A stretch of DNA of 64,000 nt. It comes from a virus. The notes below the pieces were generated by a model. It did not search any database and was not told the DNA's origin. It saw only the letters and a program-made list of their open reading frames with translations. Where the stretch lies: UHGV virus genome UHGV-0370399; one strand, written 5' to 3'. Shown piece after piece: positions 26,334 to 39,555 of the stretch. The position numbers were made by a program, and so were the translations under genes. Every line of letters starts with the position of its first letter. Within the stretch, counting starts at the first letter, position 1.

Positions 26334-34349
<8,016 letters not shown>

Positions 34350-34351
34350 TA

Positions 34352-35539
34352 ATGGCGGTAGGTGAAATTCAAATTAGTGCCTTGCCTCAAGCAGCCTTAC
34401 CAATTGACCTTAGTGATATCTTCCATCTTAAGCAGGGTATTGAGGATAAGAGATGTACTCTTGAGCAATTACTTGCTCCACACTCAAGCCTAAGAAATAA
34501 CCCTCATGGTGTTACTAAAACACAAATTGGTTTAGATAACGTTATCAATGCTCTTCAGTTAGTTGCTGCAAATAACTTATCAGACGTTACTAATGTAGCT
34601 CAGGCAAGAGCAAATCTACAGATTATGTCTTCAGAAGAGGTTAATAATCTTGTTCAACAGCATATTCAGGACAAGAGCAACCCACATAATACAACTAAGG
34701 TACAGGTAGGATTGAGTAATGTTCAGAACTGGACAACATCTAACCTTTATAACGAAGATGCAGATAAGTATGCTACAGCAAGAGCAGTAAATAACTTGTA
34801 CAAGGCTGTTCAGGCTTCCTATCCAGTAGGTACTATCCATCTTTCCATGAACTCTGCAAACCCTTCTACATATTTAATTTGTGGAGGAACTTGGGAGTTA
34901 GTTTCAAAAGGTAGAGCATTGGTTGGTTATGACTCTGATACAAGACCAACAGGCTCTGTATTTGGTGCTTCAACTGTCACTTTGTCAGTTAATAACATGC
35001 CACAACACTCACACTCTGTGTCTCTTAGTGGTGGTGGTCACACCCATAATGCAACGGTGTCAATTTCAGCTTTTGATTATGGAACTAAGACTACCAACTC
35101 TTTTGACTATGGAACAAAGACCACTAACACGACTGGTAACCACAACCATGTGGGCAGTGGGTCAACAAATGCGGCTGGTGCTCACAACCATAGATTGACC
35201 TATGAAGCAGGTGGTGGTTTATCGGAAAGACCTGCAATGGTTTGGTCTACAAGGAATGACCAATCATGGTACTCAGCAGATGCTGTCTGTGAAGTCGCTG
35301 GTTCACACACTCACTCTTTCAGTGTTACCACTAACACGACTGGTAACCACAGCCACACGGTTGGTATTGGTGCTCACAGCCACACGGTTGGTATTGGTTC
35401 ACATACACACAATGGTACTGTAACAGTTTCTTCTTCTGAGCATACGCATAGCGGGAACACTAACAGTATTGGTGGTGGACAAGCTTTTAACATTGAGCAG
35501 CCATCCTTCGTACTGTATGTATGGCAGAGAACAGCTTAA
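34352..35539 (+). CDS. tail fiber protein with His-x-His repeat C-terminal domain
   Basis: C-terminal half rich in HxH motifs (HSHSVSLSGGGHTHNATVS, GNHNHVG, AHNHRL, SHTHSFS, GNHSHTVGIGAHSHTVGIGSHTHNG, EHTHSG); C-terminus ...FVLYVWQRTA shared with the next gene. Confidence 0.7.
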   Translation: MAVGEIQISALPQAALPIDLSDIFHLKQGIEDKRCTLEQLLAPHSSLRNNPHGVTKTQIGLDNVINALQLVAANNLSDVTNVAQARANLQIMSSEEVNNLVQQHIQDKSNPHNTTKVQVGLSNVQNWTTSNLYNEDADKYATARAVNNLYKAVQASYPVGTIHLSMNSANPSTYLICGGTWELVSKGRALVGYDSDTRPTGSVFGASTVTLSVNNMPQHSHSVSLSGGGHTHNATVSISAFDYGTKTTNSFDYGTKTTNTTGNHNHVGSGSTNAAGAHNHRLTYEAGGGLSERPAMVWSTRNDQSWYSADAVCEVAGSHTHSFSVTTNTTGNHSHTVGIGAHSHTVGIGSHTHNGTVTVSSSEHTHSGNTNSIGGGQAFNIEQPSFVLYVWQRTA

Positions 35540-35585
35540 TTTCTTTACAGGGGCTTGATAGCCCCTTTTAAGAGGAAAATTTATA

Positions 35586-37973
35586 ATGGCAGATTACAAG
35601 TTGAGTGAATTAAACTCAATCAATACAATCCGTTCAGATGACCTTCTTCATGTCAGAGTTAAAAAGAGACCTGAAATGCTGGGTGATGAAGACCGTCGAA
35701 TGACCTATCAAGACTTCTTAGCATCTTTTAAACTTGAAAGGTTTGTTCAGATTGCTGGTAGCACTATGACGGGTGACTTAGGAATTGTTAAGTTACTTTA
35801 TGGTGGTAAGGTAGTATTTAACCCAACAGGCTCTTCTGAGATTACTATTGGGGATGTTTTAAAGACTTTTAAAATCAACGCAAACGGCCTTAGATTAACT
35901 ATTGCAGATGCTTCAAGGTCGGCAACTGTTTATCATACTCTGAATAAGCCAAGCCCTAATGAGCTTGGGATGAGAACTAATGAAGAGAATGATGCAAGAT
36001 ATGCAAGGTTGGCTGTAAATAACACCTTTAGAGGCACTCAAGCTATTCTCTCTGACAATGAAGCTCTTATTGCTAAGAATATTACACAAGGGATGCCACT
36101 CTATATTCGTGGTCAAGATGCAGATGGTACTAACAGGTGGTATCTAGGTAATGATAACAAGGGTACAGACAATCTTGTTTTAAAAAACGTTAAATCTGGT
36201 GCATATGTAGCTATTTTAGCTAACCTAATCTCCGTGAACAAATCAATCCAAATCACTGGGCAAGTTCAACCTTCTGATTGGACTAACTTAGATGCTAGGT
36301 ATTTTACTCAGACAGCAGCTAATCAGAGGTTTGCACAGTTAGCTGGTAATAATACCTTTAGAGGCGTGAATACATTTAATCAAATCCTATCAATTAAGAC
36401 GAATAGTGCAGCCTTAAGGTTAAAAAACACTGTAGCTAATGGTGCACTGTACATTAAAGCCGAAGCTAATGATGGCTCTGGTAAGTGGTATGTAGGTAAT
36501 GGTGATAATACACCTGCTGTATTAATCCACAACTATACGTATGGTTCTAATCTTAGACTCGACAATGGTTATGTTGAGGTTAATAAGCAACTTAAAGTCG
36601 TTGGTCAAGTTCAACCTTCTGATTGGACTAACATTGACTCTAGATATATTCCGGCAGGAACTTTGAGTAATCTTGCCAAGCTGAGTGATGCAAACACTTT
36701 CAGGTCTACACAGGTTATCAATCTGAATGGCTCATTGTTACAGCTAAAGAACACTACACAAGACAGAGAGCTTTACTTTGCTGGCCATAATGCTGATGGT
36801 GTTAGAAGGTGGTACATCGGTAATGGGGAACCATCCAACCCAACAAGATTTACTATCCGCAACGACAGAACTGCAACTACGCTTTATATGCAAGACGATT
36901 TCTTGTTGGATAAAACTGTCAGAATTACTGGTCAAGTTCAACCTTCAGATTTCTCTAACTTAGATGCTAGATATTTCTTAAAAACAAAACTGTTAAACCA
37001 ATCTTTAATGACAAGGACAGCTAATAGACTGGATGACCCATCATCATTCAACAAAGATTGTTCAGGGTTTGTAAGAAACAACGCTATTGAGCAGGGTCTG
37101 AAAGATTTAGCCATCCATGTAGCACATTCTGCTGGTATTGCTCATGCCAGAGGTATTGCTTTTACATATGGGTCTAAAGGTCTTGATGTCTTCACATACG
37201 CTTATGGGTCAGATGGAGCATATGTTGGAGAGGCACAGTTGTATTCAACGGCATTTAAACCAACCCCTTCAGGTATTGGTGCATATACTAAAGCTGAAAC
37301 TGACCAGAAGATTGCACAGGCAGTAAGTGACTCTACAGACCTTAATAAAATCTATCCAGTAGGTATTGTGACATGGTTTAACAGCAATGTTGACCCTAAT
37401 ACAGCACTTCCTGGTCTAACTTGGACGTACCTGAACAATGGTGTTGGTAGAACTATCAGAATTGCAGCAGCAAACGGTTCAGATGTTGCTACAACTGGTG
37501 GTTCAGATTCTGTAACGTTATCTGTTGGCAACTTACCATCACACACCCATAGTTTCTCTGCTACCACTTCATCTTTTGATTATGGTACGAAGAACACTAA
37601 TAGCACTGGTGGTCATACTCACTCTGTAAGTGGCACAACAAGTGCTGCTGGTAAACACGCTCACCACTTAGGTCTGCTATTGGTTAATGGTGGTGATGCT
37701 CAGTACGGTTATACAACTGTTAGCAATAACAAGACGAGAACTCTTGACTGGCTTGACAGAACTGATAACAAGTTCCCTAACACTAACACAACTGGTAACC
37801 ATACACACACATGGTCTGGTACTACAAGTAACACTGGTGCTCACACCCACTCTGTAGGTATTGGTGCTCACACCCATACAGTTAGGGGTAACACTGGTGG
37901 TACAGGTTCTGGTTCAGCATTTAGTGTCACTAACCAGTTCTACAAGTTGATGGCTTGGGTGAGAACTGCTTAA
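35586..37973 (+). CDS. long tail fiber protein with internal tandem repeats and His-x-His C-terminal domain
   Basis: 795 aa; motif GQVQPSD(W/F)(T/S)N(L/I)D(A/S)RY(F/I) x3 plus NTFRG x3; C-terminal HxH repeats; ends ...[10 protein letters not shown]. Confidence 0.75.
35990..36980 (+). repeat. Three tandem about 330-bp coding repeats within the long tail fiber gene
   Basis: Near-identical DNA segments GG(G/T)CAAGTTCAACCTTC(T/A)GAT at about 36258, 36603 and 36929. Confidence 0.7.
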
Positions 37974-37980
37974 TTCCTTG

Positions 37981-38009
37981 TTGACTGATTGTTAAGATGG
38001 TGTTAATAT
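37981..38009 (+). promoter_or_regulatory. Candidate sigma70-like promoter (TTGACT, 17 bp, TAATAT) overlapping an inverted repeat
   Basis: TTGACTGATTGTTAAGATGGTGTTAATAT; inverted repeat AAGATGGTG (37991-37999) / CACCATCTT (38027-38035). Confidence 0.5.
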
Positions 38010-38052
38010 TCTTTATGGGTATTCTCACCATCTTGGCTGATGAGGTGATTAA

Positions 38053-38250
38053 ATGCCTACAATCCTAGCAATTCTTCTAAAAAATCTAGGTAGCTTCTTC
38101 TGGAAACTCATTTTATCCCTTCTAAGTGAATACATGATTGAGAAAGTGTTCTTTAGGCTTGCAAGATACCTTGCGAGTAAAACAGACACACCTATTGATG
38201 ATGAGTTCGTAGATAACTTAGAAAAAGCTTTTAAGGGGGAGAATAAATGA
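38053..38250 (+). CDS. small hydrophobic protein, holin candidate
   Basis: 65 aa with hydrophobic N-terminal segment and charged C-terminus. Confidence 0.4.
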   Translation: MPTILAILLKNLGSFFWKLILSLLSEYMIEKVFFRLARYLASKTDTPIDDEFVDNLEKAFKGENK

Positions 38251-38618
38251 AGTGGCTAGAGGAAGCTTTTAAAAATAATATTGGTGCAATTGTAGTTGGT
38301 ATTTTTAGTGTTATTGGGATGTTTACCACGATGCAAGTTTCAAGTGGTAAACAAGAAGTGTCTGTCACAACAAAGTTACAGCAGCTAGATAATTATTCCA
38401 AAAGTAACTATTCAGCTATTCGTGATTTACAGTCTGACATGAGACTGATTCAGCTAGGGATGGAGAACCAGAAAGTTCAGTTAGAGAATGTTAAGGGTGA
38501 AAACGCAAAACTTACCAAAACTCTTGATAAATTCTCTGACAGTGTGAATAATCTGGCTCAATCAGTATCAGCCCTCCAAGCTATTACTGAAAAGAACACA
38601 AAGAATACTGAAAAATAA
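38247..38618 (+). CDS. N-terminal transmembrane plus coiled-coil protein, i-spanin (Rz-like) candidate
   Basis: 123 aa; N-terminal TM (IGAIVVGIFSVIGMFTT) then heptad-rich region. Confidence 0.4.
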   Translation: MKWLEEAFKNNIGAIVVGIFSVIGMFTTMQVSSGKQEVSVTTKLQQLDNYSKSNYSAIRDLQSDMRLIQLGMENQKVQLENVKGENAKLTKTLDKFSDSVNNLAQSVSALQAITEKNTKNTEK

Positions 38619-38625
38619 AGTTTAA

Positions 38626-38651
38626 GGCTCCTTTTTACGGGAGCCTTTTTT
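38626..38651. terminator. Bidirectional rho-independent terminator between convergent gene blocks
   Basis: GGCTCC-TTTTTAC-GGGAGCC hairpin flanked by an A-run upstream and a T-run downstream. Confidence 0.7.
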
Positions 38652-38655
38652 GTTT

Positions 38656-39555
38656 TTACTTGCCTACTGACAGAGGTGCTTCAATCTTTCCTGCATGTTG
38701 GTAGTTGTTAATGCCACCAATAAAATCACTTGCAGTAAGATGTTTCAGGTCACTTAAAGTATTAAGTGGTAGACCAATCTCAAAAGTTGGTGCATGGAAC
38801 TCTTCATTGTTCAGTAGTTCATAAACCTGTTTCATGTGGTTCTGATAAATCTGAGTATCTCCAAAGACACCTATCAAGTACCGTGGAGTGTATCCAGTCA
38901 TCTTACAAAGAACTTCCAGAATAAAACCATAAGATGCAATATTAAACGGGAGTCCTAAAAAGGTGTCTACTGAACGCTGATACCATTGTAAGTCAACTTC
39001 ACCCTCGTTAGTGATATAAATCTGAAACAGAACATGACAAGGTGCTAAAGCCATTGAGTTTGCTGCAATATCTGCTGCATTCCAAGCATTAACAAGCATG
39101 TAACGGTCTGTGATATCACCCTTCATCTTCGTTACTAAGGTCTCTAGTTGGTCTACAACACAGCCATTATGACCTTCAAAGTTTCTCCACTGAACCCCAT
39201 AGATTCTTCCACCTGCATCCTCTAACCAATCTTGTTCAGAAGAATAATTAGAGCTTAACCAGCGTTTAAAATCATCTGACCAGATAGTCCAGCGTTCTCC
39301 GTCATTTTCACCCCAAGTACGGTAACGAAGTTCACCAAGCTTATTCTCGCCATTCAGGAACCATAAAGCTTCCCCAATAACTTGCCGTGTAAACACCTGT
39401 TTAGATGTTAAGAGCGGGAAACCAGTTCGCATATCAAAACGAAACTGAGGTGGAGCAAATGCAGATATAACATCTCCAGTTCGTGTAGTACGCAGTTCAC
39501 CAACGGATAAAACATGGTTCAGGATATTTTTGTAACTTGTATCTGCTTGTGACAT
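38656..39555 (-). CDS. thyA: thymidylate synthase
   Basis: Conserved ThyA motifs LAPCHVLFQ (catalytic Cys) and DTFLGLPFNIASY; 299 aa. Confidence 0.9.
   Translation of the reverse strand: MSQADTSYKNILNHVLSVGELRTTRTGDVISAFAPPQFRFDMRTGFPLLTSKQVFTRQVIGEALWFLNGENKLGELRYRTWGENDGERWTIWSDDFKRWLSSNYSSEQDWLEDAGGRIYGVQWRNFEGHNGCVVDQLETLVTKMKGDITDRYMLVNAWNAADIAANSMALAPCHVLFQIYITNEGEVDLQWYQRSVDTFLGLPFNIASYGFILEVLCKMTGYTPRYLIGVFGDTQIYQNHMKQVYELLNNEEFHAPTFEIGLPLNTLSDLKHLTASDFIGGINNYQHAGKIEAPLSVGK

What the first reader, a model, noticed from the sequence alone, without database searches (positions are those of the whole stretch)
34352..37973. Two tail fiber genes sharing a His-x-His repeat domain and conserved C-terminus
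Both fibers end in domains dense in HxH motifs (for example GNHSHTVGIGAHSHTVGIGSHTHNG and [16 protein letters not shown]) and share the motifs FDYGTK(T/N)TN and GNH-H plus a C-terminal ...W(V/Q)RTA. HxH repeats coordinate metal ions in the T4 gp37/gp12 fiber tips, so these are probably metal-stabilised receptor-binding tips. The DNA also has a tandem duplication within fiber 1 (35076-35130) and three 330-bp repeats in fiber 2, which are substrates for recombination-driven host-range change.
Basis: partly seen in the sequence, partly recalled or inferred. Interest (0 to 1): 0.5.

Follow-up and report, generated by a model that had tools for sequence, protein, structure and literature searches.

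The report
Felix O1-type short and long tail fibres
These are the short and long tail fibre genes of a Felix O1-like coliphage, both ending in a histidine-rich needle tip like that of phage T4 gp37, and this architecture was already published for the close relative Bas63, so the finding is correct but ordinary.

Summary
Two adjacent + strand genes, 34352-35539 (395 aa) and 35586-37973 (795 aa), each end in a His-x-His (HxH)-rich domain: 9 motifs in the first, 6 in the second. They share 37% identity over about 200 aa, and the quoted motifs and DNA repeats are all present.

The window is a Felixounavirus genome, 95-97% identical to phage NRG857CP1. The genes are orthologues of the Bas63 short fibre gp26 (74%) and long fibre gp27 (66%). 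They follow wedge 2, wedge 1 and the long-fibre platform protein.

Both tips match the solved T4 gp37 tip (PDB 2XGF; E 2.6e-26 and 4.2e-20), and the T4 HxH motifs align with HxH here. The histidines are conserved in homologues. The segment between the two HxH arms, the predicted head, is hypervariable and exchanged as a cassette.

- The binding site is the head at the hairpin turn, not the C-terminus.
- The 30-nt duplication is an old structural repeat that T4 gp37 also has.
- The ~330-nt repeats are only about 60% identical in DNA.

All of this was published for Felix O1 (2010) and Bas63 (2025). The one modest addition is that the long-fibre shaft units assort independently, with breakpoints at conserved junctions.

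The parts
31718..33187 (+). Baseplate wedge 2 (Bas63 gp23 orthologue). In Bas63 its D2 domain is the attachment site of the short fibre.
   Evidence: phmmer against PDB matches 9NDY chain H 'Wedge protein 2 (gp023)' at E 0, 489/489 aa. Pfam Baseplate_J. The attachment site is taken from PMC12609058.
33190..34047 (+). Baseplate wedge 1 (Bas63 gp24 orthologue)
   Evidence: 9NDY chain J 'Wedge protein 1 (gp024)', E 5.4e-183. phrog_4017 baseplate protein.
34047..34349 (+). Long-tail-fibre platform protein (Bas63 gp25 orthologue; described as T4 gp9-like), the anchor for TF2
   Evidence: 9NDY chain S 'LTF platform protein (gp025)', E 5.6e-65, 100/100 aa. Role taken from PMC12609058.
34352..35539 (+). 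TF1: short tail fibre gene (395 aa), orthologue of Bas63 gp26 and Felix O1 gp76
   Evidence: ORF. phrog_2097 tail fiber, E 1.2e-136. 74% identity to Bas63 gp26 over the full length. 98.5% identity to the KhF2 tail fibre.
34352..34771 (+). TF1 aa 1-140: conserved N-terminal baseplate-binding part and shaft, with two NPHxxTKxQ(I/V)GLxNV repeats
   Evidence: 64-88% column identity to TF1 in 10-aa windows across 70 homologues. aa 1-78 are identical to Bas63 gp26.
34772..34996 (+). TF1 aa 141-215: collar domain (T4 gp10/gp11-type)
34997..35191 (+). TF1 aa 216-280: outgoing arm of the needle, with 4 HxH (aa 219, 230, 264, 278) and two FDYGTKTTN units
   Evidence: Histidine columns are 70-100% conserved.
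35070..35128 (+). 30-nt tandem repeat (2.0 copies, 86% matches) encoding (A/S)FDYGTKTTN twice
   Evidence: Tandem Repeats Finder. T4 gp37 has the equivalent two units. The FDYGTK-like motif count is 0-3 by pattern in homologues, and P0040 shows further degenerate copies in the alignment.
35192..35299 (+). TF1 aa 281-316: predicted head domain (receptor-binding turn of the hairpin), a hypervariable cassette
   Evidence: Column identity 0.22-0.30 and entropy about 3 bits. Head identity is 3-14% in homologues whose N-terminus and collar are 97-100% identical. This head type occurs in only 32 phage records, all Felixounavirus.
35300..35467 (+). TF1 aa 317-372: returning arm of the needle, with 5 HxH (aa 319, 333, 342, 351, 364). 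Includes the 27-nt repeat at 35341-35410.
35468..35536 (+). TF1 aa 373-395: conserved C-terminal strand ending in WQRTA, predicted to return to the collar
   Evidence: It aligns with the T4 gp37 C-terminus ...AFNYIVRLA. 63-82% conserved in the family.
35551..35566 (.). Small G+C-rich hairpin (GGGGCT-TGAT-AGCCCC) followed by TTTT, in the 46-nt spacer between the two fibre genes
   Evidence: Read from the sequence. KhF2 has a terminator annotated at the equivalent place. It falls below the scan's threshold.
35586..37973 (+). TF2: long tail fibre gene (795 aa), orthologue of Bas63 gp27 and Felix O1 gp77
   Evidence: ORF. phrog_4277, E 0, full length. 66% identity to Bas63 gp27.
35586..36005 (+). 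TF2 aa 1-140: conserved N-terminal baseplate-binding part plus a degenerate first shaft unit
   Evidence: Mean 96% identity in 118 homologues. Weak unit-like alignment.
36006..36305 (+). TF2 shaft unit U1 (aa 141-240)
   Evidence: Pfam gp37_trimer (3 stretches, E 1.4e-57). Unit alignment. Identity to homologues is bimodal, about 30-44% or 79-99%.
36306..36650 (+). TF2 shaft unit U2 (aa 241-355)
   Evidence: Its core (36360-36592) is the only strongly diverged block relative to phage NRG857CP1.
36651..36977 (+). TF2 shaft unit U3 (aa 356-464)
36978..37340 (+). TF2 aa 465-585: diverged last shaft domain (U4)
   Evidence: Weak Pfam gp37_C. A family profile hits the tail fibre S/S' chain PDB 8JU3, E 6.4e-6. 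Identity classes of about 35, 72 and 95%.
37341..37535 (+). TF2 aa 586-650: collar domain
   Evidence: It aligns with the TF1 collar. Pfam Gp10_C, E 5e-4, is below the curated cut-off. 98% conserved.
37536..37667 (+). TF2 aa 651-694: outgoing needle arm, with 3 HxH (aa 653, 677, 691, the last as HAHH) and one FDYGTKNTN unit
   Evidence: Histidines are 100% conserved.
37668..37790 (+). TF2 aa 695-735: predicted head domain
   Evidence: It lies between the two HxH arms. Identity classes of 15-20, 85 and 100%. 75-81% identical to gp37 of some T4-like phages.
37791..37970 (+). TF2 aa 736-795: returning needle arm, with 3 HxH (aa 739, 753, 762), and the C-terminal strand ending in WVRTA

Best explanation
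The window is part of a Felix O1-like (Felixounavirus) coliphage genome. The two genes encode its short tail fibre (TF1, 395 aa) and long tail fibre (TF2, 795 aa).

By analogy with Bas63, each is a homotrimer anchored to the baseplate by its N-terminus. TF1 sits on wedge 2. TF2 sits on the 100-aa platform protein encoded just upstream.

Each fibre ends in a tip of the T4 gp37 type. A gp10-like collar comes first. Then comes a needle in which each chain runs outward, forms a small head, and runs back, giving a six-stranded beta barrel. In T4, each HxH motif from the three chains provides six inward-pointing histidines that hold one metal ion (iron) on the axis. By that logic TF1 would have 9 metal sites and TF2 would have 6.

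The head at the hairpin turn is the likely contact with the host lipopolysaccharide. It is the part exchanged between phages, with the conserved HxH blocks as flanks.

The TF2 shaft is built of repeated units of about 100-115 aa. These are also exchanged one at a time, at conserved junctions.

Shown here: gene identity and orthology; homology to the solved gp37 tip; conservation of the histidines; hypervariability of the head; the cassette pattern.

Inferred: trimer state, metal binding, which metal, and which residues contact the receptor.
For: Identity of the phage and genes: megablast finds 238 phage records, the best being Felixounavirus NRG857CP1 at 96.6%. The upstream genes match PDB 9NDY chains of Bas63 gp23, gp24 and gp25 at E 0, 5e-183 and 6e-65. 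The gene order is the same in Bas63. TF1 is 74% identical to gp26 and TF2 is 66% identical to gp27.

Tip homology: 2XGF at E 2.6e-26 (TF1 aa 146-367) and 4.2e-20 (TF2 aa 641-774). In the three-way alignment, HxH columns and the FDYGTK, VGIGAH and R.A columns are invariant.

Histidine conservation.

Head variability and cassette behaviour.

Needle length changes are matched on the two arms. Relative to T4, TF1 has one extra HxH on each arm, and TF2 lacks one unit on each arm.

Published descriptions of the same architecture: PMC12609058 and PMC3185647. LPS as the receptor class for this genus: PMC8594841.
Against: - No trimer model or metal analysis was possible.
- The AlphaFold2 monomer model of TF1 is only moderately confident (mean pLDDT 66, pTM 0.28).
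- Foldseek gave no significant PDB match and did not return 2XGF.
- In the top 118 TF2 homologues the tip is well conserved and the shaft varies most. The tip may therefore not be the only, or the main, host-range determinant of the long fibre.
- No gene recognisable as a chaperone (T4 gp38 type) lies next to the fibre genes, so assembly may differ from T4.
Confidence: 0.9

Rival explanations
1. In the long fibre, host range is set mainly by the variable shaft units (U1-U4), for example through lateral binding of surface glycans. The HxH tip would serve chiefly as a conserved structural end or as a binder of a conserved core-LPS feature.
For: - Among 118 homologues, shaft units fall into discrete classes (about 30% versus 80-100% identity), while the collar and needle stay 92-98% identical.
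- There are 14 allele classes and 20 combinations.
- Breakpoints cluster at unit junctions.
- PMC12609058 also reports unexpected variability of these domains.
- In a Salmonella challenge experiment, long-fibre variants arose at aa 497 and 534, a region that would correspond to U4 here (PMC6669636).
Against: - The head also occurs in discrete classes (15-20, 85, 100%) and is shared with T4-like gp37 proteins, as expected for a binding module.
- The homologue set was chosen by overall score, which favours proteins with the same tip.
- No binding data exist for the shaft.
- In T4 the receptor contact is at the tip (PMC12609058).
Confidence: 0.25
2. TF1 is not a fibre but a baseplate pin or wedge protein of the T4 gp10 type, as some genome records annotate it.
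For: Pfam Gp10_C is its only Pfam hit above the curated cut-off. Citrobacter phage Moogle annotates the homologue as 'baseplate wedge subunit and tail pin'.
Against: The gp10-like part covers only about aa 144-220. The remainder matches the gp37 needle at E 2.6e-26. The 74%-identical Bas63 gp26 was seen by cryo-EM as a 430-angstrom fibre.
Confidence: 0.04
3. The HxH blocks bind no metal. They are kept only as conserved beta-strand scaffolding or as DNA homology patches for recombination.
For: No metal data exist for any Felixounavirus fibre. Breakpoints flanking the TF2 head fall at aa 681-690 and 751-760, inside the HxH blocks.
Against: Both histidines of each motif are conserved together across homologues only 30-50% identical overall. 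They align with the HxH motifs that are described as coordinating iron in T4 gp37 (PMC12609058). A purely DNA-level role would not hold the amino acids fixed at that divergence.
Confidence: 0.05

Closest known systems
Bas63 (Escherichia phage JohannRWettstein) short tail fibre gp26 and long tail fibre gp27; cryo-EM, Sci Adv 2025, PMC12609058
   Same: Same genus and same gene order after wedge 2, wedge 1 and the platform protein. 74% and 66% identity over the full length. Same described architecture: N-terminal baseplate-binding domain, then a collar, HxH needle and head tip. The long fibre carries repeated beta-helix domains.
   Different: TF1 has 9 HxH motifs against 7 in Bas63 gp26, which lacks the two head-proximal motifs on the outgoing arm. 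The heads of both fibres, and shaft units U2 and U4 and part of U1, belong to different allele classes.
T4 gp37 receptor-binding tip (PDB 2XGF)
   Same: Significant sequence homology. Aligned HxH motifs, FDYGTK units, the VGIGAHxHTV block and the C-terminal R.A. A gp10-type collar precedes the needle.
   Different: - Motif number: 7 in T4, 9 in TF1, 6 in TF2.
- The heads are unrelated in sequence.
- T4 gp37 is the distal quarter of a four-protein fibre, whereas each fibre here is a single protein.
- No gene recognisable as a T4 gp38-type chaperone lies next to the fibre genes; gp38 was not compared directly.
- The receptor class for the genus is LPS, not OmpC plus LPS.
Felix O1 gp76 and gp77
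   Same: Prototype of the genus. The 2010 genome paper already noted C-terminal similarity of both proteins to T4 gp37 (PMC3185647).
   Different: Different host (Salmonella). Not compared directly here.
Shigella phage Sf14 gp52 and gp53 (PMC11821841)
   Same: An Ounavirinae phage with two retracted fibres, one carrying a T4 gp10 C-terminus-like domain and a gp37-like tip, each fibre made of a single protein with no chaperone homologue.
   Different: [quoted passage not shown] Not compared by sequence here.
Recombination at conserved 'His box' motifs in the T-even gp37/gp38 adhesin locus (Tetart and colleagues, 1998; recalled from memory, not found in the held library)
   Same: Conserved GxHxH blocks flank variable binding segments and coincide with exchange breakpoints. 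Here the breakpoints are at TF2 aa 681-690 and 751-760.
   Different: In this phage the same cassette logic also extends to whole shaft units, exchanged at GQVQPSD(W/F)xN(L/I)D(A/S)RY junctions.

Membership tests
T4 gp37-type receptor-binding tip (collar, needle, head; PDB 2XGF) | Significant sequence similarity to gp37 residues of the solved tip | tested here: met
   phmmer against PDB: TF1 E 2.6e-26 (aa 146-367); TF2 E 4.2e-20 (aa 641-774). The family profile still hits at 4.2e-18.
T4 gp37-type receptor-binding tip (collar, needle, head; PDB 2XGF) | HxH motifs at the positions of the T4 HxH motifs, which are described as coordinating iron | tested here: met
   In alignment A1, 7 of 7 T4 HxH motifs align with HxH in TF1 and 6 of 7 in TF2 (the seventh is deleted together with its strand). 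They are conserved in homologues.
T4 gp37-type receptor-binding tip (collar, needle, head; PDB 2XGF) | gp10/gp11/gp12-type collar domain preceding the needle | tested here: met
T4 gp37-type receptor-binding tip (collar, needle, head; PDB 2XGF) | Chain doubles back at a small head, giving a six-stranded needle in the trimer | tested here: inconclusive
   Consistent signs: a variable insert between two HxH arms, indels matched on the two arms, and a monomer model with strands at aa 222-272 and 321-369 and a low-confidence stretch at 285-309. Foldseek did not return 2XGF, and no trimer model could be made.
T4 gp37-type receptor-binding tip (collar, needle, head; PDB 2XGF) | Bound metal ions on the threefold axis | not testable with these tools
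   Needs metal analysis or an experimental structure.
Felixounavirus short and long tail fibres (Bas63 gp26 and gp27) | Position directly after wedge 2, wedge 1 and the long-fibre platform genes | tested here: met
   PDB 9NDY matches. Bas63 gene table.
Felixounavirus short and long tail fibres (Bas63 gp26 and gp27) | Full-length sequence similarity to gp26 and gp27 | tested here: met
   74% over 401 columns and 66% over 798 columns. phrog_2097 and phrog_4277.
Pfam PF20744 (gp37_trimer) repeated shaft domain | Score above the curated cut-off, in several copies | tested here: met
   192 bits against a cut-off of 21.7, three stretches. Three units of 100-115 aa share about 39% identity. Two flanking degenerate units would fit the five domains reported for Bas63.

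The most novel reading that the evidence does not exclude
The long fibre may be a combinatorial adhesin. Its shaft units U1-U3(-U4) exist as old, discrete allele classes, only about 30% identical to one another. They are reassorted independently at conserved junctions, and occasionally moved between positions. This would imply diversifying selection on the shaft itself, for example lateral glycan binding or position-specific contacts in the retracted state, in addition to selection on the tip. The Bas63 paper noted the variability but did not describe unit-by-unit assortment.
Probability: 0.2. Interest if true: 0.45.

Novelty: already known. Interest (0 to 1): 0.15.

Why it matters
The finding correctly picks out the host-recognition genes of a Felix O1-like coliphage, but the architecture is already in the literature. 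Its practical value is for phage engineering. The analysis gives exact boundaries of the exchangeable head cassettes and shaft units in this genome, and shows that natural exchange uses the HxH blocks and the unit junctions. These are the obvious splice points for host-range reprogramming. The variation in HxH number across the family (6 to 11 motifs), matched on the two arms when TF1 and TF2 are compared with T4 gp37, is a small addition to what is known about this fold.

Full report
**What is there**

The stated coordinates hold two complete + strand ORFs. TF1 is 34352-35539 (395 aa) and TF2 is 35586-37973 (795 aa). Each has a Shine-Dalgarno-like sequence upstream of its ATG. A 46-nt spacer between them carries a small G+C-rich hairpin.

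TF1 has 24 histidines, 18 of them in nine HxH motifs between aa 219 and 366. TF2 has six HxH motifs between aa 653 and 764. Shuffling each protein gives 1.4 and 0.5 motifs on average. The observed numbers were reached in 1 and 0 of 20000 shuffles.

The two proteins align over about 200 residues at 37% identity, E 9e-23.

Tandem Repeats Finder confirms the 30-nt duplication at 35070-35128 (two copies, 86% matches). It also finds a 27-nt array at 35341-35410. TF2 contains three repeat units at 36006-36305, 36306-36650 and 36651-36977.

**Where the window comes from**

The 3.6-kb region matches 238 phage records. The best is Felixounavirus NRG857CP1 at 96.6%; an 8-kb alignment is 95% identical.

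The three upstream proteins match chains of the solved Bas63 baseplate (PDB 9NDY): wedge 2 gp23, wedge 1 gp24 and the long-fibre platform gp25, at E 0, 5e-183 and 6e-65. Bas63 has the same gene order, followed by gp26 and gp27. TF1 is 74% identical to gp26 and TF2 is 66% identical to gp27 over their full lengths.

The cryo-EM paper on Bas63 (PMC12609058) identifies gp26 as a 430-angstrom short fibre bound to wedge 2. It identifies gp27 as a 630-angstrom long fibre bound to the platform. TF1 and TF2 are therefore the short and long tail fibres of a Felix O1-like coliphage.

**The tip**

phmmer against all PDB sequences returns the T4 gp37 receptor-binding tip (2XGF) as the best match for both proteins. 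TF1 aa 146-367 scores E 2.6e-26 and TF2 aa 641-774 scores E 4.2e-20. TF1 aa 144-220 also matches the C-terminal domain of T4 gp10 (Pfam Gp10_C 1.9e-18). That domain is the collar fold.

In a three-way alignment of the T4 tip with TF1 and TF2, the invariant columns include the histidines of the HxH motifs, SFDYGTK.TN.TG, VGIGAH.HTV, and the C-terminal R.A. All seven T4 HxH motifs align with HxH in TF1, and six of seven do so in TF2.

According to PMC12609058, the T4 needle motifs coordinate iron along the axis, and the chain doubles back at a small head that contacts the receptor.

Relative to T4, TF1 carries one extra HxH on the outgoing arm (SLSGGGHTH) and one on the returning arm (SSEHTHS). 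TF2 lacks one FDYGTK-type unit on the outgoing arm and one GSHxH unit on the returning arm. Needle length thus changes by matched insertions or deletions on both arms, as a hairpin requires. This is inference from the alignment, not a measured structure.

**Conservation test**

In 70 full-length TF1 homologues down to 38% identity, the HxH histidine columns are 70-100% histidine. Nine motifs is the commonest count (50 of 70), with variants of 6, 7, 8, 10 and 11. In 118 TF2 homologues all twelve HxH histidines are 100% conserved.

The stretch between the arms of TF1 (aa 281-316) is the least conserved part of the protein. Column identity there is 0.22-0.30 and entropy is about 3 bits. Homologues whose N-terminus and collar are 97-100% identical to TF1 can have a head that is only 3-14% identical (alignment). 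That is the behaviour expected of a receptor-binding cassette.

The TF1 head type occurs in only 32 phage records, all Felixounaviruses of E. coli, Shigella or Salmonella. The TF2 head type also occurs, at 75-81% identity, in the gp37 of some T4-like phages such as SHBML-50-1 and AV122.

**Structure prediction**

**The repeats and recombination**

The FDYGTK duplication is not recent, because T4 gp37 has the same two units. The FDYGTK-like motif count does vary in the family, from 0 to 3 by pattern.

The three TF2 units are matched by Pfam gp37_trimer (three stretches, E 1.4e-57). They share about 39% amino-acid and 58-61% DNA identity. The longest exact matches between units are 27, 16 and 18 nt, all at the junction motif GQVQPSD(W/F)xN(L/I)D(A/S)RY. 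Two flanking degenerate units would fit the five beta-helix domains reported for Bas63.

The units are poor substrates for intragenic homologous recombination. Comparison with relatives nevertheless shows a clear cassette pattern:
- Against NRG857CP1, the only strongly diverged block is 36360-36592, the core of U2.
- Against KhF2, the cores of U1, U2, U3 and U4 are each about 50% identical and are separated by conserved islands at the junctions.
- Across 118 homologues, each unit is either about 30% or 80-100% identical to the one here, and unit identities are uncorrelated (r from -0.06 to 0.39).
- A two-state segmentation puts most switches at unit borders, and a few inside the HxH blocks flanking the head.
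- Clustering gives 14 allele classes and 20 combinations. One class is found at position U1 in 23 proteins and at U3 in 8.

These counts are not corrected for shared ancestry.

**Comparison with what is known**

- The Felix O1 genome paper (2010) already reported that gp76 and gp77 resemble T4 gp37 at their C-termini.
- The Bas63 paper (2025) describes the collar, HxH needle and head of both fibres. It counts seven and six motifs, and notes that the tips and the long-fibre beta-helix domains are variable.
- The Sf14 paper describes two single-protein fibres with gp10-like and gp37-like parts.
- The receptor of the genus is LPS.

The finding is therefore correct and already known. The differences in this phage are nine rather than seven motifs in the short fibre and particular head and shaft alleles.

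**Verdict**

Novelty: already known. Interest is low (0.15). The one lead worth a specialist's look is the independent assortment of shaft units in the long fibre.

Noticed in passing
window 36006-37340 (TF2 shaft units U1-U4): Shaft units occur as discrete allele classes: 14 classes at 60% identity or more among 119 long fibres. They form 20 different U1/U2/U3 combinations, and unit identities are uncorrelated. One class occupies position U1 in 23 proteins and U3 in 8. Breakpoints cluster at the conserved junction motif.
   Followed up: partly
window 37683-37778 (TF2 head, aa 700-731): This head segment is 75-81% identical to part of the gp37 distal long-fibre protein of some T4-like phages (SHBML-50-1, AV122, BYEP01, sutha). 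This suggests exchange of head cassettes between phage families.
   Followed up: partly
homologue P0016 of TF1 (metagenomic Felixounavirus short fibre): Its head region ([24 protein letters not shown]...) is close to the head of T4 gp37 itself ([25 protein letters not shown]...). This is another sign of cross-family head sharing.
   Followed up: no
window 35120-35148 and 35327-35355: A 29-nt direct repeat, 28 of 29 identical (encoding TTNTTGNH(N/S)H), brackets the TF1 head 207 nt apart. Recombination between the copies would delete the head in frame (family D3).
   Followed up: no
window 38053-38250 and 38247-38618: Two small overlapping ORFs (65 and 123 aa) lie directly after the long-fibre gene. 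They are conserved in the genus (phrog_402 and phrog_4038) and of unknown function. The 123-aa product starts with a hydrophobic stretch. A strong bidirectional terminator follows at 38624-38647, where the late operon meets the convergent thymidylate synthase and dihydrofolate reductase genes.
   Followed up: partly
window 34352-38700: No gene recognisable as a fibre chaperone (of the T4 gp38 type) lies next to the fibre genes, although the tips are gp37-like. gp38 was not compared directly. The Sf14 paper makes a similar remark about Mu-type chaperones.
   Followed up: no
window 35551-35566: A hairpin, GGGGCT-TGAT-AGCCCC, followed by TTTT sits between the short- and long-fibre genes. KhF2 has a terminator annotated at the equivalent place. 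It could modulate read-through into the long-fibre gene.
   Followed up: no
window 34481-34540 and 34661-34720 (TF1 aa 44-63 and 104-123): There are two copies of the motif NPHxxTKxQ(I/V)GLxNV with conserved histidines (96-99%). [quoted passage not shown]
   Followed up: no
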